Positions 1,085-54,100 of a DNA stretch of 64,000 nucleotides are shown one piece after another. Under the pieces are notes generated by a model. That model had not been told where the DNA came from, did not search any database, and saw only the letters and a program-made list of their open reading frames with translations. Location of the stretch: contig MQRK01234575.1 in NCBI GenBank assembly GCA_001938485.1, positions 1-64,000 on the forward strand, read 5' to 3'. The translations under genes and the position numbers were made by a program. Every line of letters begins with the position of its first letter. The first letter of the stretch is position 1. Source of the DNA: Girardia tigrina. Taxonomy: Eukaryota.

Positions 1085-4000
1085 ATGGTGTTCTTGAAAG
1101 TACCATAATATCATTTATTGAGAGAGGTGTTGTCCTGATGGTACGATCAGTTGATTCGAAGGGAGTGGAATTTGTAGCTGTCAGCGGAAGAAAATTCCTG
1201 GGCCATATACTCCCAAAGGTCACTATCATTGGTAGGGGTATTTGCACCTACGGACAGTGGATATTCAAGTGAGGAGAAAGATGAGTTCTTCGTATCGTTA
1301 CAAGAACAAGTGGAGAATGCGACTGCTGAAGCTCAGCGCAGAAAATACGAACAGTTAGTTGGAGGTGACTTCAACTGCAGACTTAATCGAACGGAGGAGA
1401 ACAGAGGAAGTACCGGGTGGTACATTAGTTCAACAGCAACATCGGAGAATGGTAATCATGTCATTGATCCAACAGATGCATGTAATTTGCTTGTAGAGAA
1501 CACCTTCTACAAGCAAAAACTGGTGCAGAGAACTAATTGGACACACCCAGCAACGAAGCAACGCTTATTACTGGAACAAAGACACAATCAGTAGAGACAT
1601 TGGACAGGCTTGTCCGAATGTTAAGTGTTGGGACGACATAGAAAGAGTAGCTGTTTCTACAGCTAGCAAATACTGAAAGAAGAAAATCCCGCTCAATCAA
1701 AGGGGGCTTCAAAACGACCTAGATGAACTGAAGACGTTGTTACAGGAGAAAGGGAAACGAAGGAAGGAGTTCATCCAGAATAGAAGCAAACAAACATATG
1801 CCAAATGGAAAGCTGTGTGACTGAATACATTACGGCAGCTGAGAAGATGGAAGAGAGAAACGATAGAGATCATCAGACAGGAGATTGAAGGCGTGCTGAA
1901 CAGAGAGTGCATAGGGAAAAAATCTGGACTATATCCGGAACTCAGAGCCATATGCAATAGCGAAACAAAAGAATCAACTCTCTGCACAGTACAGAGTAGT
2001 TTGACAGATGAAGTGTTAACAGAGTACTTCTCGAATCTATTCAGGAAGAATGAAAGAGATTATGTCGTGATTGAAGATCAGAGACAGATCTTGGATATTT
2101 ACAACTTACCGAACGTGGAAGAAGTGGGTGCCGCAATAAATCAACTCAAGAACGACACAGCTGCTAGGAACAATGGTATCATCCCAGAGTTATACGAGTT
2201 AACTCTTATTATTATTATTAAGTTAACAAGTTATACAGTTAACTCTCAAGATCCAGCAATGTTTTGAGTAAATCTTGGAGGGAAGATCAGACTTACAAGA
2301 GGCATGGAAAACAGTGAAAGTTGTAATCCAATATAAAGTGAAAGGTTTAAAGAGGATTTGAACAATTACAAAGGAATCTTTCTACGCAATATGGTAGGTA
2401 AGATAATTGCAAAAAAAATTATGGCAAAAAATTAATGCCACGCTTGGAGAGAATACTGGACGACTGACAATTTGAGTTCAGGCCCAAAAGAGGAACAGCA
2501 TATTCGATTGGCATCATCAGAAAGGTGCAAGTACAGGCAAGATACCGCAATATCAACGTGTATGCAATATTTATCGACCTGGAAAAGGCATTCGACAGCG
2601 TGCCCAGGAAAGTTCTCTGGGACTGCCTTCAAAGAATGGGAGTACATGGTCGCATATTAAGCATGATAATGGACTTTCATGAAGGATTTACAGGAAGTGT
2701 TGGTAAGAGCATTTTCACATGGAGAAAGGAGTCCGACAAAGTTGCGTACTCGGTCCCTTACCTAGAATTCGACTGCGCAATCAAAACTGATATCCAAGAA
2801 GGACTAAGTGGAGGCGTGAAGGTAAAATGTAAAGACGGAGAAACATTAACTGTAAACAGGCTGATATATGCTGACGATCTGAGTTTACTGGACGAGGATT
2901 ACGGAATCATAGAGAAAAACCTAACCTGCCTAAATACTGTGTTTATGAGAATGGGGCTGAAGATCAACATTGGGAAGACGAAGATCTTTAATGTTAATGG
3001 AGCCAGATATGTAACGGCAGAAAACAAACTGAGTGCCGGTGTAGAATGGGTGCACGAGTTCTGCTACCTTGGTTCGATCATCGAGAAGGGAGGAGGATCA
3101 AGAGTAGACATCAAAGCTAGAATTAAGAAAGAAGTGATAAAGCTGAGAACGATCAAACCAGTATTGAAGAACAAGTTGTCCCTCCAAAACAAAAAGAACA
3201 TCATCACAAGTTGTGTATTCCCTGTGGTATACTGCAGCTGTGGAAACTTGAGGACGAATTAGAGGGAAGGACGACAGAAGAAACATCTGGATGAATGTCT
3301 CAAGGTAGACATACACTGGCTCTTCGGAGACAAGTATAGCATTAATGAATTTTGTAGAGACATTCAGCAGAAGAGCCTATTAACATCAGTGGCAAGAATA
3401 GAGAAAGTCATTAAGCTAAAGAAAGTGGAGAGAAGAGAAGATGAGAACACGATGCGATTAATTCTCCAACGACTCAAAGAACACAGCTGCCCGATGGAAG
3501 ACTGCTATCGTCAATTCGCGGAAATCAAAGAATTGAACACATATCTCCGGTAGGATTATATCGGAGCAAATCCAATACCGAGAAAACAGAGACAGAAGAC
3601 AGCCCAGCCACGACAAAAGAAAGGAGTATACAAGTGCCTTCACTTCCCAAAAGAATACAAGTGCACAGGATGGCTGAAGATCAACTTACAGAAGAAGCAC
3701 CGAGAAGAACCAGAGCAATCCAACACCAAAAGAAACGACAACTTGGTAAGAGAGGAAGAGCGGACAATAATCCAATCGAACCCTCGGTTTCTGGACGCAA
3801 CTGTGGGTATGCCGGGGACCCAGAACGAACAAGACGCTGTAGAAACACACAGAGACTACCGATTACCCGACATGAAGGCAAAATGAAATTTTCAGTGTCC
3901 ATTTCGCGGCTGTGACGTGTCCACCGTAACAGTTAAAGGCAAGTATGGCCATGGAACCAAGTTCCATAGTTGGTCATTCGTCACTGGAAAGCCGACTGCT

Positions 4001-6109: not shown

Positions 6110-9100
6110 CTGGTTAACAATTAAAGGATCAAATACAATTACTTTATATCGATACACCCATGAAATACTGTGTTAGCCAGTTATGTCAAAACATATATTA
6201 TGATGACACTTAAAAAAATTATCAAAATATTTATTTCTCACCCTTTAAATCTGTTTTATTTAATATAAAAACGGTCCTACCAAAATATTATGCAAATATT
6301 TTAAAATTTAAAGGTAGCCCAACGATCACAAAAGTTAGCGTTTTGTAACTGAAAACCATAAGAATATGTATGCATCATGAAGATTAAATTTATTCATAAT
6401 GTGTCAAAATAATTTTTATTAAATTTCATTAGGTTAATAAAACAAGTAGTAACTTTTACATAATTTGAAAATATTAAGTATTTTGTTTTAGTCACTTAAA
6501 TATCGTCTTAGTGATTTTAATATTTTAATATAACATGTATTTATTAATTCTTTTTTAAATTATGCAAACTAAACAAATAGAATGTATATTTTGGTTTTGT
6601 TGATATATTTATGCTTAGATGCTGACTCCTTCTCTAAAAAAAGTGTGCTTATTTGGTTCAACAGTGACTGAACTAGTAGGAGCTAAGCTATCTTCAAATA
6701 GGCAAGTATTTGGATTTTTTCTTCATCTTCATTCAACTGAAAAGCTCTCTATTTACAATGCTGCTAAATAGGTTATCATGGATGTTTTATCATTTTTGGA
6801 AAAGGCCAAGCTTCCAGTCAGACAAGTACATTATTGTATTAAGAAATTAGAATATCTGTTTAGTCATTGGAAAGTTTTAAAGAAACATAAAAACCGTCAA
6901 ACAGAACTGCACAAGCAACAAGAGAATGAATTTATTCAAAATTTAGAAAATTGGTTCGATGTGGCTGATGCAAATGCATTAAACATAATAAAGATTCCGG
7001 AAGACAAACTGTTTCTTCTAACCCAACGAGAGAATGGTAGTCCCAGGCAAAATACTTCATAAATCGTTTATAAACGATTGATACTTTTCTTGATCTACAC
7101 TGTAATTGTGTAATTTGAATATCAGGGGACCCTTTCTTCATTTTGCAAATTTTTGGCCATAATTGTGGGAATGACAATGTTCACCGGAATTTATTAGTTT
7201 GAACGTCAGAATTGGCGGGTAGTCTAGATATTGAATCTGATTTCATTGATGAAAATACATTGCCTCATATTATTGAATGTTCAAAGACATTGAGATGATT
7301 AAGGCGGATCAATATTACATCAATAATAATAACAATATCTGTTTAATATATAATTCATGGATTTACCCTTAGATCTGTTATTTTACTACGATTTATGTAT
7401 TACAATGCAAATGGTATTTTATGTTGTAAAAAGTATATATTTTTGAGGTCGATTTAAAAAATCCGTAAATTAAAAAAATCAGTTAATTTTAATCTCATCA
7501 AATCAATAAATTCAATATCGAATTCTAATTCAATTTTTTTCAATCTTTTTTGATAATTGTTGAAATATGCAATCACGAACGACAAAAACTAATTAATCAG
7601 AACATTTCGATGTAGAATGATTTAGAAGTTAAAAACGAATAAATGTGTTTCTTGAAAATCGCAGATTTGATAGAAGAAATAAAAAAAACAGATTTTCTCT
7701 TAAGAAAACAATTAAAAGATTTTGTACAACGGTTAAAAAAGCAAAAATAGTTTAAGAGGAGTGGTAAACTGTTTTACAAATATTGGCATGTCTAGCATTT
7801 TCCAGCAGGGCATAAAATTCCCTGCTTTGATCCATTGAAAGCACGATATTCTGCCGCAAGAGAACACAAAATCCCACACTACCAGACAATTGCAGAAAAG
7901 ATAATATATCTTAACACCATTGAATTTCTTCAGCACCAAGCTTATAGTTCAGACCTTAAGCCACCCGACTATCACCTCTTCGATTGCATGGCAAACTGTT
8001 TTCACAAGTTAAACAATCTGGCTGAGGTTGAAAACAGATGCTGGGAGTTTTTTATCTCTAAAAACAAAGAATGGTACCACAGCGGGATTGACGAACTTAC
8101 TAATCAACGGATCCAAGTCATTAATTCAAATGTTCTTTACTTTTAATGTTGATTGTTGTTTAGTTGTCGTAAAATTATGTTTTTTTAAATTATTTATTTT
8201 TTTAAATCGAAAAAGAACTTTAAGTTCACACTAAAATTTCACGTATTGAATACATCTAATTAATATATATATCATGAAGATAACCGACTCACCGTTTTAT
8301 CCGAGTCCTTATGACAATGTAAGATTTTCAAAACGGTCAAATGAGTGAAATCATCGAATCTTTGAGGCATAATTTTGGTTAATTCTTGAAGAACTCTTAA
8401 AGACAGAGTTCGAATTTCACACTAAAGAAGAGAATAAAGGAATAAATAGTAAAAAAAATAGTTTACATCAGCATCCTTCACGGTATCAAGCAATCTCATC
8501 AGGGTTGTTTTGAATACATCATTCCAGTTTTCAACACAATTTTCGCGCACCAAATTTATTAGTTTCATCAAACAGGCTTTTCTTTGTTCCGTCCTAAAAC
8601 AGACACTTAATCAAAAGAATAATAAAAATGTATTGTAAGATTCACAAATCTTAAATGTAAATAGCAAAAGGACCCTGTTACTTTAATAATGTAATACTTT
8701 CAATTAAATAAAATTATAACGAAATCCAACCTTTGATTGAGATAACACAATTCTGCTAATATTGTCATTATCATATCGTTAGGAGGCAGATCGGATATTT
8801 TTCTCAACATTTGGAAGCCCATAGGAGACTGTGAATGTAAATAAGATTCTAAACAATTTATAAAATAAATATTCAAACCGAGAGAGATAATTTACCTGAT
8901 GCATTTATTCGAAGCATTTGATCAGATAGTGTTGATCCAGCCTAAATATTTTTTTTGTAAAAAAATATAAAATGCAGTCAATTCATTATTATTAAAAAAA
9001 TCCTTTTAAACTTTTTATTATTCGAAAGAAACATGATAAGTGAATCATTCAGCTTGGAACTTCATCAGCCAGTATATATATAACCTTATTCAAGCAAGTA

Positions 9101-12100
9101 CTAATATAATCTGCATTTATAGATTACTTGATAAAACATATCAACAACCTAAAAAGATACTTCTGAAAGTAATAATTATAAAATCGAATCTTTATTACTA
9201 TTATGTAAATATTTTATAAATATTTTCGAGTGTTGCTGGAAATTTTATTTTAAAGTTGAGTGACCTAATTAATAACACTTCCCACACTATTCTCTCATAA
9301 AGCAATTTCCAAAATCGGAACAGAACTTTTAAATTTTTGATTTAAAAATACATTTACATTTCTGTCTATGTGCAAACTAAAGCTTACTTAATACTAGGTT
9401 TTGGTCAAAATTTTAAAATATAGTGTACTTCATCAGATAAAGTGACATTATTTGACACATTGAATATCGCATGGGCCCTTGTGAGCACGCGTTCCACGAG
9501 AGTAAATTTATATGTTGGGACCGAATAATCACCGGTGTGCACTTTAAAATAAATCTAGTGGTCAAATAGTGTATGTCTTGAATTATTAGTTTGGTGACAT
9601 TTAAACTCTGTGGTAATTAATACCACAACATTTAATATCCGCGACAGTTAATCCCAAGACATTTGATCCCGCCACATTTAATATTAAAAATATTTAATCC
9701 TATAGAAAAAAATCGAAGTAATTAAATTTATTATAAAAAATTTAAATGATTATTAAATTAAAATAATTATTTTTTTATTAAAATATCTATTATTAAGATC
9801 GATAGCATCGAGGATATTTGCATGTTTTGCTTCAACTATTTTATGAGATAACCACTGGGTGTCATCTATCAGACTGTATCAGAAAATACAAAACCTAACT
9901 TTACAAGACTTGGCAATGAAATGGAATGCCATGCACCAATATCTTAAAAATTAATAACAATTACATTGTAATAATAATGAAATTTTATAATAAAATTAAT
10001 AAACATGTGTTATGTCTTCTCATTTCTGAAAGAATCAGTCGAAGTTAAGTATTAAAAATTTTAGTCAATCATACAACTTATAAATGTGCCTACCCCTGCA
10101 ATAGAGAAAATTATCATAATTCGATTATCACCGGGACCTCAATCAAAAAGAATCATACTTTATATTCATCTGGAATAAAAAAACAGATCCACAGGTATTG
10201 CAGATAGATTTATTTCATTAGAAAACATTACATTAATACAGGTAGAATTAATTCCTTACTTATATTTAATCTTATACAGAGAATTCTGACAAAAATATTT
10301 AAAAATTTTTAAACTAAAACATATTTAAATTATTTAAAATAAAATAACAAAAAAAATTTGAATTCAATATTAATTTCAATTAATAATAAAAAGTTCAAAT
10401 AAAAATAATTCATATAAATATTTAAAAAATAACAACAAATTATTTTTAAAAGTCCAAAAACGTTCGTTAAATATATTGTAATCATTTTCGACGGATCAAC
10501 CGTCATCATCAGACTAAATTAACAATGATATATTCGCGTTTATATCAAAGCAATGTTTATGCAATCATTATGTAATTTATTAATCATGTAAATACATTCA
10601 ATAAAATTGAAGAGGATGGTGTTTGCACATTGATGTTAGGATCAAAGGATTTGATCAACACATAACCCTCTCCCAGTAATTATCAAATTGTGAACACAAT
10701 ATTTTAAAATTACTTAGATCAACTTTACTATTCAAACAGTTCTTCCTTTGTTGATCAATATTATCACTTAGCTCTGTAAACAGATTCAGGAACATAATTG
10801 CAGGGAAAGTGATAGCAATAGTGCTCAACCTAGAAGAACAGTTTGAATAGAATTTAGATATAAACACGTGTATGTGAAAATTATGATATAATGTAAATAA
10901 GTACAAAAATTATTTTATTTTTATTTCTTTTTCAAAGTTTATTAAATTAATTAACACTTATATTTATTGTAAAAATTAATTTAAAAAATAAAGGAATTCG
11001 AACTAATGAAAGTTATAACAAATTAATTAATTATAACGATTATAAATAACATACATCATTGCCATAGTAATTGTATGATCCAGCATCATAATTTTGATAA
11101 CAGCTGTACGTTAAAGAATTTTCTACACCGGGCATTAGATTTCTGTGATTTGATGTGAATGAATCCTGACAAGGGCCTAGCATGTCTGAACTGTTACTGA
11201 TAACCGATGACGGATACTCGGGATTGCGTAAAGAAGATTGAAATCTGTTGATCATATAACTGGCAGCCGAATTAGAGAGCATGCTCTGATCAATGTGATT
11301 TCCGTTAGTGTTACCATCATTATATGGAGGATCACTCAGCTGTGTTCTTAACTGCTTTTAATAAAAATTAATTAATGATAAAAGAAAGATGACTAAGAGT
11401 ATAAAAATGAATGAGCAATAAAATAAGATATAGATAATACCAACAATCTAATAAAATCACAAAATACTTTATAACAGTCAATGTTATAAAGATAATGTTA
11501 CTAATGTCACAAGTATATATGAAATTATAAATTAATTTATTAAGGAAAATGATAAAAAAGTAATAAGAATTTCAAATTTGGTGTGGTCTATGACCACTGA
11601 CCACATCTCGTTAGGAACATTACATAACAATAATAAAATATGCCTACATTATAAGGTCTAGATCTGGAATAAGAACGGTTTCCATCAGTCCCATCATAAC
11701 AATCGTACGTCATTGCTTGCATATCCTCAGTTGTTCGACGAATATAATTATCGATATCTTCTTGGATCATAACATTTTTATTCCCCATAGGTTTCATTTG
11801 AAATTTATTTCGATCAGTGTAAAATTCTCTAAACAAAATTTTTAAATAATAATATTGAAAAAATATGTTAAAATATATCTGTAACTTTTATCAATGGATT
11901 TTTGTAATAAAACTCACAATAACAACACGAGAGGATTTTATCAAATTTTAATAATATTAAAGAATTATTTTCTAAAATTGACGACTGTCAAATGACAATT
12001 AATAATTAATCAACATAAATATTTTAATATATTCACATTTGTTTTTAATAAGTTTCAAAATGAAAAACCTATCCAATAACTTTATGAAAACCAAAAGTCA

Positions 12101-15100
12101 TTTTTACATAAATGGGAAATATCCGACACAATTAAACACGATGCAACCTCTACCAAAGTTTTAAATGCAAAAAAACACTTAACAAAATCATATAACCGTA
12201 AACACAACAGCCATCTTACCGTTGCTTTACGGAATGTCCATAATATCCGTATTGTTCGAGACTCTTAGTAGAGGTTACTTTGTCGGTATTCTTATCGTGG
12301 AAAGAATTCGATCGGGAAATTTTGCTTCTGTACATGAAGATTGAAAATCAAACTAATCAGATATCATCATGATCTTTCTATCAATTTTATAATTCTTGTC
12401 TTTACTAATTTACATTACAAAGCTTATCTTAATTTTGAATACCTTGAAATATGTTTACATTCTCACTTTAAAAGCTTGAAAGTTTACTGTTTCAAGACTA
12501 TGTAGTATCTCTACGCCAAATGTGTATTAGAAAACAATAAATAAATAAAATATTTTTTGTAAATACAAAATGACGATTTATCCTAAAAATTTTGTTATTT
12601 TTGTTAAAAATTGGCACTTTTCTGGATTAATTCTTAAATCTGCTTCCTTTATTTTTTCCAATATGCTCTTTCGTTGCATATGCTCTTCTTTATTTTTTGC
12701 CAAAATCCAATTATCGTCCAAATATACTACTGCCTCTTTCCAGTTTAAATCTCCTATGACTTTGACCATTAGCTCTTCGAAAGTTGCTGGGGCTGCTTCT
12801 ATTCCGAAAGGCATTCTTTTGAAACAATACTGTCTGTTCTTTGTTGAGAATGCTTTTTTAATCTTTGATTCTTCTTCCAACTCGACTTGGTAGTAAGCTT
12901 TTCCAAGATCAATTGAACTGAAGTATCGCGCACCATTCAGTGTGTTGAGCATGTCATCTACATTCGGCATAGGAAACGCTGGTCTGATGGTAATTCTATT
13001 CAACTGGCGGAAGTCTACACACACTCGAATATCTTGTTTTTCCTTCTTCCATACGCATACTAATGGGAAATTCCATGGTGAGCTACACTTTTCGATTATG
13101 TCATTTTCTTCGAAATTTTTAATAACATCATCCAATTTTTCCTCAAAGTGTTTTGGNTGCCGATAAGGTTTTACTAGTATTGGATCCCCGTGTGGTTCTA
13201 TTCAGTGTTTTGTCAATGATGTTTGCCGATATCCCACTTATCAACTATGAATACTGATTTATAATTTCTTAGAATCTTCAATGTGTTTGTTAAATATTTC
13301 CATTTTTCTTTTTAGTCTGTCCTCATCTGATGGGTTGTCTCTAATCACTAATATTTCTCCACCTCGAGGTATCTATCTTTTCAGTTTTATTCCGAATTTA
13401 TCCAAGAATTCTATACCTGCGATCATTTCGGGGTCCAGTTCTTTGACCACATAAAACTCTATTAACTTTTGTGTTCCCTCAATAGCTACATTTAATTGAA
13501 CGAGTCCATAATTTATCAGTTCTGAATCATTTACACAATGGATACGCTTTTTTGTTACTTTAATTTAATATCTTTCATATTTTTAATCATCTCCGCTTTA
13601 ATTACATTTACTCTGGCTCCGGTGTCCAAAAGGCAATGACATTTTCTATCCTTCGAGTAAAAATCCACACTTGGACGTCCTTTCAATGCTTTATAATTTA
13701 TCTTAAACTTTGATATCTTCAATATTTCCGTATTACCATTTAGTTTCTCAACATATTTAGTTTTCATACTATTATACTGTTCTCGATTTCCAATATCTTT
13801 ACATTCAAGTTCGCAAATTGAATTATTTAATCAAGAAATACTTTGTTTACTGATCAAGAGCTATTTTTACTGAGTTATAATTAAAAATACCGTGCATTTT
13901 AATACTGATCATTAACTAAAAATATTAAGAGAATAATTAAAATAATGATAAATTAATTTAAAAAATACTGAGCAGTAAATTACACGCCTTTTTAAGTAAA
14001 ACTTGAATTTAGTGATTTTAGTGACACCCCATACATATTAAGGAAATTTATTTAGATCGTTTTAATAATCTGTTACAATGTCTTAGGATGTATAAAATAA
14101 TTAATAATTTAGATTTTATTATTTAAATAATTAGATATATTTATACATTTTTTTAAAAAAGTTATATTATAATTTAAGTACTAATTTCTGTGATTTAATC
14201 GTTCCCTTAAAATCCTCTAAAGTTCAGAATAACTTTTAAAGAACCAGTAATCCTATGAAATTATAAAATATTCGGAAGAGAATATGGAATATCAATATTA
14301 TTAAGTTAAATGAAAGTATCAGAAACACTTAAGTTTGCACTTTTTTCCGAACTCTATCTTTAGAAATATAACTTTTACCATGTCTCAGCATTTGGTTTTT
14401 AAACACTCACTGACGGAAATAACAAGACGTCTCTCCAATTTCATCTACATCCATTTACGACATCATGATACAAATCTATTGAAGTCGTTATTTTCTGCCA
14501 TGTGTTCGCAGTGAGTTACCTGAGTGTTAAAATTAGCCAGATAAGCACCCTTAACGTATATAAGCACGTGAAGCAAAAGTGTTTCTCCGGTGCGTTGGAT
14601 GCACATATACGTTGGGCGAAACTAATTTCCATTTATAGATCTAAGAGTTATCTACTGGTATTCCTATACATATATGTTGATTCATTTTACTGTTTTTGAC
14701 GGATGTACACGTCATTATTAATTTTAATTACGCATTCAAAAATAATATTTGAAAATCTTATTTGTTAAAGAATATCACTTTTACAGAGCAATAATTATTT
14801 CTCTACAACGAGAATAATAATTTAAGTAGCCATATTAAAATTGAAAATTTTGAGATGTTTACAACTTTTTGTAAATAATTTCGTGTTACTTATCAAAAGA
14901 TTTGGAGGATCTTCATTAGCTGAGTAAAATATAATTATTTGCACATCAAAAGAAAACAATTGACAAATTATTTTTCTTTGTTTGGATAAGCATATTTTTG
15001 ACATAGAAAATATACATAAATATTTTATTTCACAATTAAAATCCATTTGAGAATAAAAGATATTTATTATTAACAAATACATTATTTTGGCGGCTGTTTT

Positions 15101-39100: not shown

Positions 39101-42100
39101 AAGCACTTTTTAAAACATAGTTAAAAAACATATTAGGGATAAAAATAAGACGACGCATTTCGAGATAATAATAATCTCATAATCAGGTCACAAAATGTAC
39201 TAAGCAAGTACACTATATGGAAACTTGCCGAAAATAAATAAAATTTATCCACTAAATTATTTGATGAAAATAATTTTATTTAACTTTTCCTTAAAATTAA
39301 GAAAAATGCATTACATGCAATCAATTTTTGAATTTTTTTGATTATAAAATAAATAATGACAATTTATAACTTGAAAAGTAATAAAAATAAAATATGCATT
39401 TAATCATCTAAATGGTTAATGTAACACAAACATGCAGTGCAACAACAAAAAGCAGTATAGAAACAAGCGTTCACAAACTTTTGCACCTGACTTTATATAT
39501 ATATATATATATTGGTAAATAGTAACCGGGACGTAAATTATCTTTCAGTTTGACCTTGGACAAACTTTATTAAATATTTGATATTGAAACTGCTCTACTC
39601 TTCCTATTTTGTTTATTAATCAATGGTTTATGTCTGAGTGACACTTATTCACAATACAATTTCTCAAAACAGAAATCAAAGGTAGTTTGAAGAATAATAA
39701 TTTCATTCTTTGAAATGGATTAGGTTTTATAATTGCAAAAATTACAATGATCAAAAACTTCACTCAATGGACTTGGTTGTGAGAGTTCACAAATCAGTGT
39801 TTCTGGATGATTATTTCTTTCCAATTCACACGTTATAATACACGTGAGATTAAAATAGATATAAAATTAGCTTTAGTTTACAGTTAGTTCTCGCTTTAAC
39901 TGTAAGGAAGTCTCTCACTTTGAGTGTACCAATGACTATATCGTAACATTGTCAATATTTTATGAATAGTTTTTTTTTCAAATTTCTAAATCATACATAA
40001 AATGTTCTGCATGATTTTAGAAAGTACCATCTTATCAACTTTTTTGATCAGTTGAGTATTAATTATATCCAATCTTAGTCTAATATTGGTCTCTATTTTC
40101 CCTATTTGGGACCAAGTATTATTAAGTGGTCTTCTGAGGATATTCAGACTATAGTACTCGTACTTATAATAAGAGATAAGAGTCAAAATTGTCAGAAAAA
40201 AATCCTTTAGTCATGCTTTCTTTATATTTCTCTTCATAGATACTTTTTAATATTGTATAAAGTCCTGTGTTTGTTTGTTGATTTTTAATGAAATATTTAA
40301 GATATTCTTTTATTAATTGTTTTATAGATTGGATAATAATTTTTTATTCTAATTATATACATACAATTTATACAGGTAAAATCTCAAAATTTGTAATAAT
40401 TAATAATAAAATAATGGACGAAATTAATTATTGATTTGTTATTATATTTATACAATACATAGATTGTGTCGTTATTCTAATTGAAGGATCACAAACTTCC
40501 TGTATAAGTATGACAGGTAACACAGGAATGGTTCATAGATGGTTCGGAAAACATTTCTTTACCATTGCTAATTTATTTTTTCGAAATAACATAACAAACT
40601 GAGTTTTTTTACAAAAAATATACGAATAATTTTATTTTCTGATTCATCACTTTATATATCTTTTTTTAGATAAAATAAATTTTTCATTAATTTATTTGAT
40701 ATTTGTAAAATAAATGCCGAAAACTAGCAGAATAGATTAATCATTGTAAAACATTAATTTGAATATAATTGTTTCAATTGGCAGAGAATCTGAGATGCTG
40801 GGAAATAATTCTGGATTTCCGAATTACTAACAAATATTTGATATACAGCGGAACTTCTAATAGGCGGACCCCTTCGGGATGTATAATAATGTCCGGTTTA
40901 TAAAGGTATACGGATTTAGGAATTTCATGCCTACTTTTAAAAAAATGTATGCACATATGTTATAAAATATAAAAGTGATCTATAATATAGAGTGACACTT
41001 CTACAAACATGCAAATGAATTTTCAGTCTTTGCTTTGGTTTTCCTCATATGCGACCAAAACCTCAGTTTTACGCTTTAAAATGTAACGTGCTTGCATTTT
41101 TCCTATTTTGAATTCTTTAGCCACTTAACGACAACTTGTCCCACTTGTTTCAAAACATTTTATCAATTTAATTTTTTCGGCTAAAGTTAATTCTTTTCTA
41201 TAGTTTTTTGGAAACTTGAAGTTTGACTTAGATGCATTATTATTATTATTGTTTGATGCTGAGATCATTATGAGAAAATATGTAACATTAAAAATAAATT
41301 ACCAGAAGATTGTTTCCCATTTATTAATCTAATTCGTATCAAATTTATTTCCCAATTTTGGCATTTAATGTGGAATCGGTAAGTCATCCAATATAGAACA
41401 GTATTAAATTCAAAATTCATGCAATATGTTTTGTGTGCAACCCTATGCGCAATTTATGTCAAATATCAACAATTATACTGTCCGCTGTTGGAGGTAAATT
41501 TGCGTGTAGTGTAATAAACTTTGAAAACTGTTTTGTCTCTTGTCCGGAGTGGAGAGTGTCTGTATCTAAGAGCTGATTCAATACACATTAAATCACAGGC
41601 GTGAATGGTGCCTGTAACTTTGTTCGTTCTCGAGGTGTCCGGATAAGGAGGTTCCACTGTATTACCTGTTGTATCCTTGATAGACATCTTTGACTTACAA
41701 ATCATGTTTTTTAAGGTAAGAAAGTACTAGACTAAGTTGTGAAAGTCATAAAATAGATTAGGTGTTTTAGAAGATATGTCTAGGACTATTTCAATTGAAG
41801 TATACTAAAAAGCCCTCCGAATGCTACAAATAATGTCATAAAAACATAATTAAAAATTACTTATAATTTGATATATAATTAACTTTATTTATTAAAAGAA
41901 GCTTAATTATAAAATGATGATAGGATTTTTTCTCCCGCCAAAAAATCCTTTTTTACTGTACTTTGAATAACTTATGGTTTACCAATCAATAAAAAATACA
42001 TCTAATTGAAATAAAAAAATATATAAAAAGAAATTAAAAGTCGGTCCATGTTAAAACCTACCGTCTTGTACCGTTGGATTTAGAGACCATTGCTGAAGAT

Positions 42101-45100: not shown

Positions 45101-48100
45101 ATAACCCTGACCGAGAATCTGGCAATGATTTTTATTTTTAAAACAGATCGAAATTTGGATGAATTCATTTCTCGCACTTATTATTGCTTCATCTCCAATT
45201 TCTTTTGTAGGTATAAAATCATAATTTTGTCTTTTTATAATACATCCATCATAATTATTTTAGAAAAAAAGCAATTAAATCAATACTGATATGTTAGAAA
45301 CATGAATGCAACGCCATCTTCAAAACAGAGTAAATAATAATCATGAGAATAGAAAGAAAACTATTTTTAGGCAGAGAAACCATAGACTGATATTTATAAA
45401 GGAATTAAATTTGATAAAATATTGGTTTAATTATTAGTAAAAAATAAATATTTAATATTTCTTCATAATGAAACAGTCAAGATGAGAGGAAGCAAAAAAT
45501 AGAATTTGAGAAAAAAAACTTTTTCGACGATGTAAAATATGAAGAATTTATTATTAGAATAGGATGTAGCTGGAATAGGAAAGAATATATTCATCAATGA
45601 TACAACGAAGATTATTGAGTATTCTCAAAAGAAATTTTTCGATTTGGTTCAGAAAATTAGGAATAAATGAATATTTTATTTCAACAAAAATAACCACTGT
45701 ATCACATTTCAAACCAGAAGTATTATTGAGCATTTTTATTGCATTAACCCAGATGATTTCAGGATACAGAATCAAACAGTAAAGGTAAGATTGATAAAAC
45801 TCAAGTAAAAAATCTGAGCAATGACAATTTAAAAGTGACATCGAAATCATTAGAATAAATAAGAGATTCAATAAAAAGTATCAAACATTGTAATGTACTA
45901 TATTAACATGAATATACAGTGTCGCTCAAATTAATCCGTCAGTACATTTTTTTTCATATTATTTAAATTTGTACAAAATTTACCAAACCAACCATTCTTG
46001 AAATTTTACATGTAACTAACTTAAACATTGAGTTAATTTATCACTAAAAATATCTCATAAAAAATAAAAATTGAAATATTTATGTAAGATTTTCAAAAAA
46101 ATTGGTTGCTCAATTTAATCCGTCATTGCGTCATATCAATAAAATATTATCATTTCTGTAAAAATTTATTAAATTATAATTACATTATTGTTTAAGAAAC
46201 CAAGACAATGAAAATCCTAATAAAATTTTATTAGAAAAAGACAGATCGAATAAGGGTTATTAATATTTTATGGGTCCTCCTTTTGCATCAATACAAGCTT
46301 GAATTCGTCGAGGCATACCCTCAATGAGACCATGACAAGCAGCCTTAATGTCCGGATCATTGCTCCATATATCTTTTATTGTATTTATGAGTTCTTCTTT
46401 GGTATTTATATGCACAATGTGAACTTTTCTTTTGACAAAAGCCAATAAATTCTCTATTGGAGAGAGATCTAGGCTATATGGAGGCCATTTTAAGACAACA
46501 ATGTTCTGGCTTTCTAAAAATGAAGTCACAGACTTGGACTTATGACACGGAGCATTATCCTGCTGAAAAATATCAATCCCAACTGAATGGCGTTCATTCA
46601 TTAGGGGTAACAGGTTCTTTTTAAGGATATTTATGTACTTTTCTGAATTCATGGTTCCTTCAACTATTTCTAAGGCTCCTGTTCCATCTTTTGAAATGCA
46701 GCCCCAAACCATAATTCGTTTAAGAAATGGTCGATGTTGCCTTGTGTGTTCATTTTGAATTAGTTGGCCTTTTCTTTTTCTTATATATTGTGCTCGTGGA
46801 GGATATATATCAAAAGTAGATTCATCTGAAAAAAGAACCTAAAATTTAATGAAAAAAATTATTATGTAATATAACCATTATTTATTCTCCCTTCTTCCAA
46901 AGAAAAACAACCCACTTTTCGTACAATTTACACCATTTATATCGTACATCTTTTTGGCGCTTAGACAGTGAAGGTGATATTAGAGGTCGATATGAAGATA
47001 AACCACTTCTTATTAATGATCGTTTGATGGTATTAAGACTCACATTCATGGCATTCAAACCAACAGCAGTTTTTATTGTCCTTGAGGTTGCTTTAGGATT
47101 TATCAAAGCTTGCTTCGCGAGTGCCCTGTCAATTCGATCAGATAGTTTTCTTTTTCTACCACATTTTCCATTTCATTGCGCTCCAATTTGATCGGTTTCT
47201 TTGTATCTTTTTATGATACCCGATATCGTTGATCGATGGATATCAGTATCCAATGAAATTTGAATCTGTGTCTTCTTCTCATGATATTTTTTAATAATTA
47301 TTTCACGGATAGATAGTGGTGTATCCATAAGGGCAGAATCTTATTAAATAATATAAATGATCAGTATCATGTATAATAAAAAAACAAAATTTTATTGATA
47401 TGACGTAATGACGGATTAAATTGAGCGACACTGTAAATCGGTTTTATAATTACTTTTCGAAAATCTGATATTTTGATATTATAAACCATCAAAATCTATT
47501 AAAACTATTTTCTAGTCAGGATAGGGGTTATTTAAGTTTAATGCAGCTAACATGGACCCCTTGTCTAAAATTTACAAAAACTTCGATATGGTCCCTTATT
47601 CATCCCTGTAAATTTACATCACTAATCTAAAATGTGTAGTACGATTGACATTTTCCTTTTGAAGATTTTCATCTTTTGTGATTAAAATATAAATTCTTAA
47701 ATACAATATCAAATTAAAATGACTCAGTATAAAAAAATCAGAGTCAAATTATCAAAAAAAGTTACAAGTAAATTTTTAAATAAAATAAATATTTGATCGT
47801 TTTAAATTAATGTATTGAAACAAAATAATGAATGCACCAGAACTTTAAATGTTTAATTAAAAATTAAGATAATTAAAATTATTTCCGTAGTTTTTTAGAT
47901 AAAATAAAACATCGAAATATTTGACATGAACATAAGCGGTGTTCAATCAGTGACAGGTCCGCTGCCCTGGGATGATGGGGCGACAGGTGGAAAACACAGT
48001 GACAAGCGATTGTAACTACGGCCGTTAACATCACTAATCAGCCATGGTACCTTATACCGCCACACATCACCCACATTAACTGCATTTCACCAATCAATAA

Positions 48101-51100: not shown

Positions 51101-54100
51101 TCATTTTAAAATCAAAAAAAATCAAGAACTAAATAAAAGTTATATTAACTATGATAAAATTTCGTAAATTTAAACTTTAAAAAATGAAATTAGTTAATTG
51201 TCAGAAAGTAAAAAGAAGTCAAATGGATTATTAATACTATATTTATTTTTATTATACCGGTTTGAGATTTATTGAGTAAATAGTTCCTCAAAAGTAAAAA
51301 AAATAAATGAATTTAATTTCGATTAAATTTGTTTAAATAAAATGTTTTAGACATTTTTTGCAGAGAAATAAAATTTGAAAAGTGATGTTGGCTTCTAATA
51401 TCGATAGCGTGGAAGATGTTCCAAAAACATCTAACACCCCTTATTCAATAAAGTTTCAAAATAATCATTTTATAATATTATAATATTTTTAACACAATAA
51501 AAATAACCTTTACCAAAAATTTATTTGAATAAACAAATTTATATCATATTTATTTGATCTCTATTCAGTAAAAGATAGGTTATATGCAATCCCACGTAGG
51601 TAGCCCATAATCATATGATCACTGTAATTGCGAACAATATTGATAATACCTGAATTTGAATCTGTGTTAATAATAGTTTTCTCGGATTTTGTAACGGATG
51701 AACGGCTAACATTTGAATACATTATACTTGCTGCAATGCTTGTTCTCTTTGGAGAAACCCAATGAACTTCCAAAATGTGGGGACAGAACTTCCGACATTG
51801 GACTGGAAACTTCTGTACCAACCTTCTACCGAATTATTCGTTCTTAGTAATTGATCTCCACATCGTTGATACATAATCCACACATTAATGGGATAAATTG
51901 GCTGTCGTCATCCATGGGATTGAGGTCTTCAGATATAACAATCATTAAAATAATCTACGACTGATATGCTTTCCTGGTGGTAAAATTCATATAATTCTTC
52001 AAAAGCATTGACAACTTCATATGTCGGAACGAATGTAAGAGCCGGAACCATTCTTAATTTCAGTGCAAAATCGGAATATTTTATTAACGTTGTTGCAAAC
52101 CATTCACTTGAATTTTGCAGTAAATGTTCTGATTTAGATGAAAGAAGCATCATTTTGTTTCACTGTCACGGAAAATTCTTTCTAAACTGTTTATAACTGA
52201 AAATTCACGATCAACCATTATGGTCATTAGCTTCTAATTGAGATTCAGCATATTTAAGGTCTGAAACATTTTAATGTATGTTTCTTTTGTTTTATTTAGC
52301 AGTAATGCATAAATACGTGGAATGGTTTGCCCATTAACTAGTACATTAATCGTGTACAATCTGAAAAAAAAGATCAAGAGCCGTTTTAAAAGTTCCATCT
52401 TTAAATCAGAGATATGATATTTCCAAAATTTTCCCAAGATTGTCGGATGTTCCAAGGATTAATATTCTGTTTTTATCATCTGTACCGAAATCAAACAAAA
52501 GAAAATGCTGGCCATCACGAGTTACTTTGAAACGATCTAGAATTTCGATTTCATTAACATTTGAAGGAATATGTAATGGGTTTTTGACAGCTTGACGGTG
52601 ATGTCTGACATTGCGACGCAAATGATTAACAGTCAGCCATTTGGTTTTTATATCTACACTGACTTATAATTTGCTGCACCGCTCATTCATTTAATTCTGC
52701 AAGTCTTAATTTGTTCAACAACTTTAACTAGCCTAGTTGAGCTGCATGTGAACCATGAGAATGATCGTTGAATCTTCCCACAACTTCTTCGCCACGAAGT
52801 TTAATCTTAGCTTTACATTCGGCATTAATACGTCTTCCCTCACATTCAAATGATATAACAACATTTCTTAAATGTTTATGTTTGACATAAATATAACCTT
52901 CTAATATCACTTTAACTTGTCCTTTTTTAGAATATACAATTCCCATTTACATAATAAATCTTTTACTGTTATCTATATTGTTATAAAAAGATTTATATTT
53001 TCATACTTTTTATTACAGAACTAATAAACTTTATTACTTAATTAACAAATTGGGTCTCTATTGTTGGTGTAGTGACCCAGTCAATTCTTATATATAAATT
53101 ATGTATAATAAATTACATATATAAATTTACTAAAAAATAAATCGATTATAAAAATCGACGAATAAAAATTTGATAATTTAAAGTTATCTGTCCTGGACTG
53201 AATTTTGATCCTATCATTAGTGGTGTTGTTTGGACCGTTCTATAATTTATCAACTTAGCTGAGCGAAGTATGATCGAATCGAGACTCAGTCATCTAATTG
53301 TCGAATCGTATCCTATTGCCGGATAATATCTTATCAATTTGCCGAAAATTAAAATTGTAATCATCAAACATAGAACATCCGTCATCTTTCAATTACCAAA
53401 ATAAATATTAGAAGAAACGAGACAAAGAATAACTCAAGTTGTGTTGTCAAGGAATAATAGAATCATCGATTTGGCATGTTACGTCTTCGCCAATTACTGT
53501 GGTATTAAAAATCTTATATACAACTTGGATTCAAGCATGTTTTTATTATTTAATATAGTTTAATTAAAATTATTTTTTTTATTTCTATTTATATAAATAT
53601 TTTGATAAAAGAGTTAATCGAAACATACGTCTCAATTAGCTCTTTTACAGTTGGATCTCTATTACTGCTTTTTGCAAGGAAGGATTGATGTTAGGGGGTT
53701 TTGTCCAGGGGTTTTTTGACCTATTCCAATGAATTGATATTCCACGTCGAGAATCGATAGTTACATATTATTTAATTATATTTCCAGTCTATTGAAGTAA
53801 CCACTATTACCAAAAGCATAGAAAAACTTTTAGTAGTATTACTTTAAAATGTTAGGTACATTTTAAAAAGGTATTTGTTTATGAAACAAGATATAAAATA
53901 AACATTACTAATATATTGTACTCCCCAATTAATAATGAAAAGTCTAAACATGTTGAGTATATGTTTAATGATAGAGAAAAACTCAAAAACATTAGAATAC
54001 AATATTACATCTAGAAGAAGATATTTTTTTCGCATCCTTTTTGAAATATTAAGTGAATGCATCTGAAACTCATTAAGCAGGAGACATCATTTGTGATCTT

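What the first reader, a model, noticed from the sequence alone, without database searches (positions are those of the whole stretch)
10466..10523. Intronic hammerhead ribozyme with intact core, sense to the CLASP pre-mRNA
Seen: the minus strand has CUGAUGA-(U)-GACGG/UUGAU/CCGUC-GAAA about 60 nt past the eroded end of a GIY-YIG C-terminal fragment, inside CLASP intron 20. Established: Penelope-like retroelements carry minimal type-I hammerheads in their pLTRs, and these often cleave as dimers. Inference: the core and GC-rich stem II are perfect while the surrounding ORF is eroded, and the motif is transcribed with the host gene, so it could cut the intron co-transcriptionally. Stems I and III are imperfect, so it may be inactive.
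Basis: partly seen in the sequence, partly recalled or inferred. Interest (0 to 1): 0.72.

Follow-up and report, generated by a model that had tools for sequence, protein, structure and literature searches.

The report
Damaged Penelope-element hammerhead in CLASP intron
This is a real but ordinary leftover: the self-cutting RNA motif at the end of a broken Penelope-type jumping gene, one of more than a thousand copies in this genome, sitting in a CLASP intron with a mutation that likely stops it from cutting.

Summary
The core is real: CUGAUGA-U-GACGG/UUGAU/CCGUC-GAAA at 10512-10486 (-), inside a 2,113-nt CLASP intron (11054-8942), sense to the gene. It is the end-repeat (pLTR) hammerhead of a ~440-nt, 5'-truncated, 5'-inverted Penelope-like insertion. 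The same 27-mer occurs 1,270 times in the genome. Related elements carry RT plus GIY-YIG, and helices I-III covary across 11 representatives, so the family motif is a genuine minimal hammerhead of a described kind. The 'perfect core amid eroded ORF' argument fails. 34 of 75 copies fetched without using the core have the identical 27-mer, and catalytic positions change about as often as flanks (1.1% vs 1.4%, p=0.54). This copy also has a rare U15.2A change (U in 107 of 110 copies) that breaks the palindromic helix III needed for dimer cleavage. Helix I is 2 bp, the cleavage-site base is U, and no compatible partner lies in the window. Contigs from 4 of 4 public runs splice across this intron. 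Cleavage was not testable here. The scan has reported the same kind of relic before, in this genome and in others. Verdict: ordinary, most likely inert.

The parts
10486..10512 (-). Hammerhead core and helix II: C3-A9 (10512-10506), unpaired U (10505), helix II 10504-10500 / 10494-10490 with 5-nt loop, G12-A15.1 (10489-10486)
   Evidence: helix II closing pair probability 0.98-1.00 in three context lengths
10480..10486 (-). Loop-less helix III hexamer (10486-10481) and cleavage-site base H17=U (10480). Family hexamer is self-complementary; this copy has A at 15.2 (10485), giving A.A mismatches
   Evidence: U at this column in 107 of 110 aligned copies; 12 copies genome-wide with intact helix II have a non-U there and this is the only one with its hexamer
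10478..10514 (-). Outer limits of the motif: 2-bp helix I (G-U at 10514-10513 with A-C at 10479-10478)
   Evidence: both pairs are kept in 11 of 11 representatives, each with 4 two-sided changes; pair probability <=0.03 in this copy as a monomer
10504..10509 (-). Two in-frame ATGs inside the core; the element's own ORF starts here (in L130 the frame runs on, after a stop and short break, into the N-terminal region)
   Evidence: (L130); same arrangement reported for Anolis PAc (PMC11167929)
10513..10544 (-). TATA-like box (10544-10539) and initiator-like TTAGT (10517-10513): predicted pLTR core promoter; 2 nt of the family TATA run are missing in this copy
   Evidence: inference from spacing, no shuffle control; TATA plus Inr in pLTRs described in PMC3846280
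10408..10769 (-). Direct segment of the Penelope-like insertion: GIY-YIG C-terminal coding remnant (to stop at 10586-10584), 3' UTR/pLTR, hammerhead, and about 70 nt of tail that is the start of the ORF
10772..10850 (+). Inverted 79-nt 5' segment of the same element, overlapping the direct segment by about 45 nt of element sequence (head-to-head inversion)
8942..11054 (-). Host CLASP intron, 2,113 nt, GT..AG
   Evidence: joint in contigs of 4 of 4 runs; flanking exons splice into a frame open for 432 codons

Best explanation
This is the pLTR hammerhead of a 5'-truncated, 5'-inverted Penelope-like retrotransposon copy in a CLASP intron, and it is likely an inert passenger that decays neutrally and is removed with the intron. 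Shown: identity of the element, high copy number, family-level covariation, the rare helix III mismatch, neutral-looking decay, and splicing across the intron. Inferred: in the source element two RNA copies would pair through the palindromic hexamer to form helix III and cut after H17, probably only with help from the element's protein. The core doubles as the ORF start and lies directly behind a predicted TATA-initiator promoter, which would constrain it in active elements but not after insertion. This copy is predicted not to fold into the active form: no helix III as a monomer, two A.A mismatches as a homodimer, a 2-bp helix I, and no partner in cis.
For: 1,270 exact copies of the 27-mer and 1,569 flank-anchored copies. 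RT and GIY-YIG in related copies. Inversion and tail as described for EN+ PLE insertions (PMC8557442). 34 of 75 core-independent copies identical over the 27-mer, and rare changes at 1.08% in 11 catalytic positions vs 1.40% in flanks (Fisher p=0.54). This copy differs from the family at 16 of 362 columns, so an untouched 27-mer has P about 0.30, and 2 of the 16 fall in the motif (10485, 10480) against 1.6 expected. Modelled active dimer -1.8 kcal/mol against -11.4 for an intact family copy. The only other model hit in the window (39144-39194) has G8U and a different hexamer. Spliced contigs cross the intron in 4 of 4 runs. Literature: single min-HHR showed no cleavage and dimers low activity (PMC4209133); Anolis PAc HHR cleaved only with protein and no RNA-seq ends were found at its site (PMC11167929).
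Against: No cleavage assay and no raw reads: contigs cannot show RNA ends. All 11 catalytic positions and helix II of this copy match the family. In the core-biased set of 127 copies the catalytic positions looked less variable (1.3%) than flanks (2.7-3.2%); the difference was not significant when only rare changes in core-independent loci were counted, and that test has modest power (9 events). Spliced mRNA does not exclude occasional intron cutting (recalled: exon tethering can keep splicing intact), and I did not show that the sequenced animals carry this insertion. Folding energies ignore tertiary contacts and protein, and even intact family copies do not fold into the active form in these models.
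Confidence: 0.88

Rival explanations
1. The copy is cut in trans. Its substrate strand (A16.2-U16.1-U17 followed by A-C) is unchanged from its subfamily, so an intact hammerhead on RNA from another family copy, helped by the element's protein, could pair with it and cleave the CLASP intron when the family is expressed.
For: A heterodimer with an intact copy has one helix III mismatch instead of two and it lies away from the partner's core (modelled -7.5 kcal/mol). Family sequence is abundant in the RNA-type contigs. Protein-assisted cleavage is reported for PAc (PMC11167929).
Against: Only about 5 weak pairs in helix III plus 2 in helix I would hold two separate RNAs together; hexamer duplex energy is positive (+0.9). 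U at position 17 is the minority state (9 of 110 copies) and is recalled as the slowest allowed base. No in vivo ends were seen even for intact PAc.
Confidence: 0.05
2. One reading: the motif has been kept by selection as an intronic ribozyme that cuts CLASP pre-mRNA co-transcriptionally, like the conserved intronic hammerheads of amniotes.
For: Core and helix II intact, sense orientation, host gene transcribed. Precedent for domesticated intronic hammerheads (PMC6155905).
Against: An intact 27-mer is the state of 45 of the first 100 flank-anchored copies listed (hand count) and 34 of 75. Rare mismatch in helix III. No long helix I or Rfam match of the canonical type. The insertion is only about 4% diverged from its family, too young for conservation to be visible. 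The intron is spliced in 4 of 4 runs.
Confidence: 0.03
3. Any effect on the host comes from the pLTR's other signals rather than catalysis: the TATA/initiator-like sequence could start a short sense transcript inside the intron, or the AG at 10515-10514 could act as a cryptic 3' splice site.
For: TATA-like box 29 nt before an initiator-like TTAGT in this copy; the same pairing at 27-31 nt in 4 of 10 other representatives. In D. virilis Penelope an intron ends at the 5' end of helix I (PMC4209133).
Against: No GT..AG joint ending at that AG among the 10 joints listed for family copy L130, nor among the 15 listed of 42 for the window. TATA-like words are common at 26% GC and no shuffle control was run.
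Confidence: 0.04

Closest known systems
Minimal hammerheads (min-HHR) of metazoan Penelope-like element pLTRs, especially the Drosophila virilis Penelope variant (Cervera and De la Pena 2014, PMC4209133)
   Same: Type I topology, extra unpaired base before helix II, G10.1-C11.1 pair, small palindromic helix III (in the family), 2-bp helix I as in the D. virilis variant, position in the pLTR after the GIY-YIG ORF, thousands of dispersed solo copies.
   Different: This copy has lost the palindrome at 15.2/16.2. Helix II is 5 bp without the D. virilis bulge. No splice junction at the start of helix I was seen in RNA contigs. The paper's supplementary alignments were not seen and may already hold this or a sister family.
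Anolis carolinensis PAc (Poseidon) hammerhead (PMC11167929)
   Same: ORF start codon at the start of helix II; predicted cut about 26 nt downstream of that start codon; insertions end in a tail made of the first ORF codons.
   Different: PAc was shown to cleave with protein help; nothing was assayed here. The tail here ends about 70 nt after the hammerhead rather than 111-118 nt into the ORF.
EN+ PLE insertion units with inverted 5'-truncated copy, pLTR TATA plus Inr and tail (Adineta vaga Pen families, PMC3846280; overview in PMC8557442)
   Same: Head-to-head inverted segment, 5' truncation, TATA-like and initiator-like motifs in the pLTR, pLTR includes the first ORF codons.
   Different: Very high copy number here (over 1,200) versus very low in A. 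vaga; no clear target-site duplication found.
Conserved intronic type I hammerheads of amniotes (RECK and others; reviewed in PMC6155905)
   Same: Hammerhead core in an intron of a host gene.
   Different: Those are canonical type I motifs with tertiary contacts, conserved across species; this is a minimal, recently inserted, mutated repeat copy.

Membership tests
PLE minimal hammerhead (Cervera and De la Pena 2014) | Catalytic boxes CUGAnGA ... GAAA ... UH | tested here: met
   10512-10506, 10489-10486, 10481-10480
PLE minimal hammerhead (Cervera and De la Pena 2014) | [quoted passage not shown] | tested here: met
   U at 10505; G-C in this copy and in 11 of 11 representatives
PLE minimal hammerhead (Cervera and De la Pena 2014) | Palindromic positions 15.2-16.2 (and loop 3) allowing a dimer helix III | tested here: not met
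   Met in the family (33 of 33 cells paired in 11 representatives) but not in this copy (A.A). The copy is therefore filed as a mutated descendant, not as a competent member.
PLE minimal hammerhead (Cervera and De la Pena 2014) | Short helix I closing a type I fold | tested here: met
   2 bp, covarying across representatives; weak in folding models
PLE minimal hammerhead (Cervera and De la Pena 2014) | Located in the pLTR of a PLE | tested here: met
   71 nt after the GIY-YIG stop codon; L130 shows pLTR followed by ORF N-terminus
PLE minimal hammerhead (Cervera and De la Pena 2014) | Self-cleavage as a dimer | not testable with these tools
   No assay; only contigs, no raw reads
EN+ Penelope-like element | RT followed by C-terminal GIY-YIG endonuclease | tested here: met
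   In related copies: RVT_1 E=9e-7 (29.3 bits, just under the 29.6 cut-off) and GIY-YIG E=4e-6 (over cut-off); the window fragment itself gave no GIY-YIG Pfam hit but matches those copies
EN+ Penelope-like element | pLTR, inverted 5'-truncated segment and tail | tested here: met
EN+ Penelope-like element | Target-site duplication | tested here: inconclusive
   Longest shared words at the two ends are 7 nt of AT-rich sequence
EN+ Penelope-like element | Clade assignment (Penelope/Poseidon, Neptune, Nematis, Hydra) by RT phylogeny | not tested
   No tree was built
Domesticated intronic hammerhead (amniote RECK type) | Canonical type I fold with long helix I and loop-loop tertiary contacts | tested here: not met
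   No Rfam hammerhead match at E<=10; helix I is 2 bp
Domesticated intronic hammerhead (amniote RECK type) | Conservation at the orthologous intron across species, above the flanks | not testable with these tools
   No related genomes are held for G000; within the genome the core is no better conserved than flanks
Non-LTR retrozyme | Tandem non-coding units each with a hammerhead | tested here: not met
   Single copy with coding remnant; one family match in the window; definition from 10.64898/2026.07.22.740005

The most novel reading that the evidence does not exclude
Solo intronic copies such as this one are trans-cleavable targets: when the Penelope family is expressed, its RNA and protein pair with the retained substrate strand and cut host pre-mRNAs, CLASP included, turning more than a thousand transposon relics into a transposon-controlled RNA-cleavage network.
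Probability: 0.04. Interest if true: 0.75.

Novelty: new member of a known kind. Interest (0 to 1): 0.12.

Why it matters
As found, it matters little: it is one more mutated copy of a described motif. It is a clean worked example of why a perfect hammerhead core in a young repeat is not evidence of function. The family itself is a convenient test bed for an open question, what PLE hammerheads do: over 1,200 copies, several sister families with covarying helices, and a core that overlaps the start codon and sits behind a predicted TATA-initiator promoter. If solo intronic copies could be cut in trans, transposon activity would reach directly into host RNA processing, but nothing here shows that.

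Tried and rejected
Rfam scan of 9500-11500 at E<=10: two snoRNA chance matches, no hammerhead. Genome search with Pfam CLASP_N: no match, uninformative because exons are short; single exons were used instead. Type III reading (upstream AUCAUU pairing with the strand after GAA): would put G at position 17 and leaves no helix I; rejected on inspection and because the type I pairs covary. Alternative register cutting after 10479: first helix I pair would be C.U; rejected on inspection. Searches used a structure string shifted by one column; their results (40% paired, model R1) were discarded and redone. Idea that the AG before the core is a used 3' splice site: no such joint. Idea that RNA contigs beginning at L130:619-622 mark a transcription start (lead from e1-9223300): the 28 genomic copies with a different upstream are mostly sister subfamilies or internal deletions that share the core, so the loose ends are no evidence. 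Target-site duplication: none clear. No run is on record as RNA and no raw reads were offered, so cleavage ends could not be sought. Lunse et al. [quoted passage not shown] Sense versus antisense bias of copies in introns could not be tested without an annotation.

Full report
Observation. The minus strand at 10512-10486 reads CUGAUGA-U-GACGG-UUGAU-CCGUC-GAAA as stated. In hammerhead numbering C3 is 10512, A15.1 is 10486, U16.1 is 10481 and H17 is the U at 10480, so the bond that would be cut lies between 10480 and 10479. The loose core pattern is at chance level in the window (4 found, 4.92 expected) and Rfam has no hammerhead match at E<=10. The exact 27-mer, though, occurs 1,270 times in the 1.43-Gb genome, with 0 for the reversed control.

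Host gene. Three upstream exon frames match successive parts of Pfam CLASP_N weakly (E 0.075-0.12; 3 of 10 fragments scanned), one matches human CLASP2 and CLASP1 structures (E 3e-4, 2e-3), and a downstream exon has CLASP/TOG look-alikes. Contigs from 4 of 4 public runs (kind guessed as RNA) join 11054/11055 to 8940. With cuts set to GT..AG, the nine exons from 11830 to 5400 give a frame open for 432 codons. The motif therefore lies sense in a 2,113-nt intron (11054-8942). The intron's ordinal number was not checked, and I did not show that the sequenced animals carry the insertion.

The element. A search with 10400-10840 gave 2,713 candidates, of which 40 were scored, the 39 other than the window at 84-89% identity. 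The insertion has a direct part (10769 to about 10408) and a 79-nt inverted part (10850-10772) that overlaps it in element coordinates. Related copies encode RT and GIY-YIG domains (the RT score is just under Pfam's cut-off). The window remnant matches the last 65 residues of such a copy at 74-80% and carries a 10-nt deletion; its stop is 71 nt before C3. In L130 the same end repeat is followed, after a stop and short break, by the N-terminal ORF region, and the frame starts at ATGs inside the core. This is the published anatomy of EN+ Penelope-like elements: partial tandems forming pLTRs, an inverted 5'-truncated copy and a tail (PMC8557442, passages; PMC3846280, passages), with the ORF starting at helix II as in Anolis PAc (PMC11167929, passages and second half of the main text). 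No clear target-site duplication was found.

Is the family motif a real hammerhead? Eleven hand-picked representatives of distinct families and subfamilies from fetched loci (window copy excluded; picked partly for having the expected helices) pair in 90.9% of 132 cells, with two-sided changes in 9 of 12 pairs; 0 of 500 shuffles reach this and slid controls give 20-55%. The helix III hexamer is self-complementary in all 11 and the two inner helix I pairs are kept in all 11. This matches the min-HHR description (unpaired base before helix II, G10.1-C11.1, palindromic 15.2-16.2) and the D. virilis variant with a 2-bp helix I (PMC4209133, parts 1-2 of 4 read; supplements not seen). A model from this alignment scores intact copies 69-70 bits and the window copy 60.2 (12 sources searched).

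Is this copy's core specially conserved? No. Among the first 100 of 1,569 copies found by flanks alone, 45 have the identical 27-mer (hand count). In 91 distinct copies from 96 loci fetched without using the core (alignments under 85% identity dropped; 30 loci were anchored on flank motifs, which lowers the flank rate slightly), 34 of 75 covering the 27-mer are identical, and changes seen in at most two copies occur at 9/832 catalytic cells (1.08%), 35/2037 core cells (1.72%) and 196/14029 flank cells (1.40%); Fisher p=0.54 and 0.27. A broader, partly core-selected set of 127 copies gave 1.3% for catalytic positions against 2.7-3.2% for flanks and 3.0% for the 27-mer (similar); that contrast includes subfamily differences and selection bias. 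The window copy carries a rare letter at 16 of 362 columns (4.4%), so 27 untouched positions has P about 0.30.

Is this copy competent? Probably not. Position 15.2 (10485) is U in 107 of 110 aligned copies but A here. Genome-wide only 12 copies with an intact helix II have a non-U there, and this is the only one with its hexamer. The change puts A opposite A next to the essential A15.1-U16.1 pair. H17 is U, found in 9 of 110 copies against C in 72 and A in 29; that U is the slowest allowed base is recalled, not from a call. Folding keeps helix II (P 0.98-1.00) but gives helix I pairs P<=0.03, and a minimal active dimer evaluates to -1.8 kcal/mol for the homodimer, -7.5 for a heterodimer with an intact copy and -11.4 for an intact homodimer. 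These energies ignore tertiary contacts and protein, and intact copies also misfold in the model, so only the ranking is used. No partner lies in cis: the only other model hit in the 64 kb (39144-39194, minus, 20 bits) has G8U and a different hexamer. In the literature a single min-HHR did not cleave and dimers cleaved poorly (review PMC6765202, passages), and PAc cleaved only with its protein, with no RNA-seq ends at the site.

Mechanism. Shown: element identity, copy number, family covariation, the rare mismatch, neutral-looking decay, splicing across the intron. Inferred: in source elements the motif works, if at all, as a protein-assisted dimer, and it is held constant partly because it also encodes the start codon and lies behind a TATA-like box and initiator-like TCAGT/TTAGT (both present at 27-31 nt spacing in 4 of 10 other representatives; no chance control). 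After reverse transcription and insertion into the CLASP intron these constraints lapsed. Best reading: inert passenger, 0.88. Rivals: cutting in trans by RNA from intact copies (0.05), cryptic promoter or splice site (0.04), domesticated co-transcriptional ribozyme (0.03).

Comparison and novelty. It works like, and descends from, the PLE min-HHR class. It fails one defining feature of that class (the palindrome), so it is filed as a damaged descendant. It does not meet the structural features of the conserved amniote intronic hammerheads (PMC6155905, passages) or the tandem layout of retrozymes (10.64898/2026.07.22.740005, part 1 of 5 and passages; about 42-44% of Xenopus retrozyme copies overlap introns, so an intronic position is not unusual). 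Four literature searches were run; I make no claim that this family is absent from print. Earlier notes of this scan describe the same kind of relic in this genome and in others. Score: interest 0.12, new member of a known kind.

Noticed in passing
window 39144-39194 (-): A second hammerhead relic from a different family, also sense to CLASP: intact helix II, 3-bp helix I and near-palindromic hexamer, but G8 changed to U.
   Followed up: partly
window 9206-9374 (-): A fragment about 74% like a sister Penelope-like subfamily (L135) in the same intron and orientation; no hammerhead was detected after it.
   Followed up: partly
L003, L104, L105, L161 (35 nt upstream of each core): TATA-like box 27-31 nt before an initiator-like TCAGT/TTAGT whose A lies 3-6 nt before hammerhead C3; if used, the element RNA would begin at helix I and the cut would remove its start codon.
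   Followed up: partly
L130:457-1400: Short pLTR followed by the N-terminal ORF region of the family, with the frame starting inside the hammerhead core.
   Followed up: partly
family copies, e.g. L003 and L134, 10-30 nt either side of the motif: A possible distal extension of helix I, separated from the 2-bp proximal part by a 7-10 nt bulge on the 5' strand, appears in several families' folds; covariation was not tested.
   Followed up: no
L134-L161: Several diverged subfamilies (70-78% identical in flanks) share the identical 27-nt core, which also encodes the first ORF codons.
   Followed up: partly
window 12578-13830 (-), 1178-3262 (+), 46260-47340 (-), 7796-8146 (+), 51564-52946 (-): Reading frames that look like an LTR-retrotransposon RT, a LINE, Tc1/mariner transposases and a Mutator-like transposase (names from recalled motifs, not scanned).
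   Followed up: no
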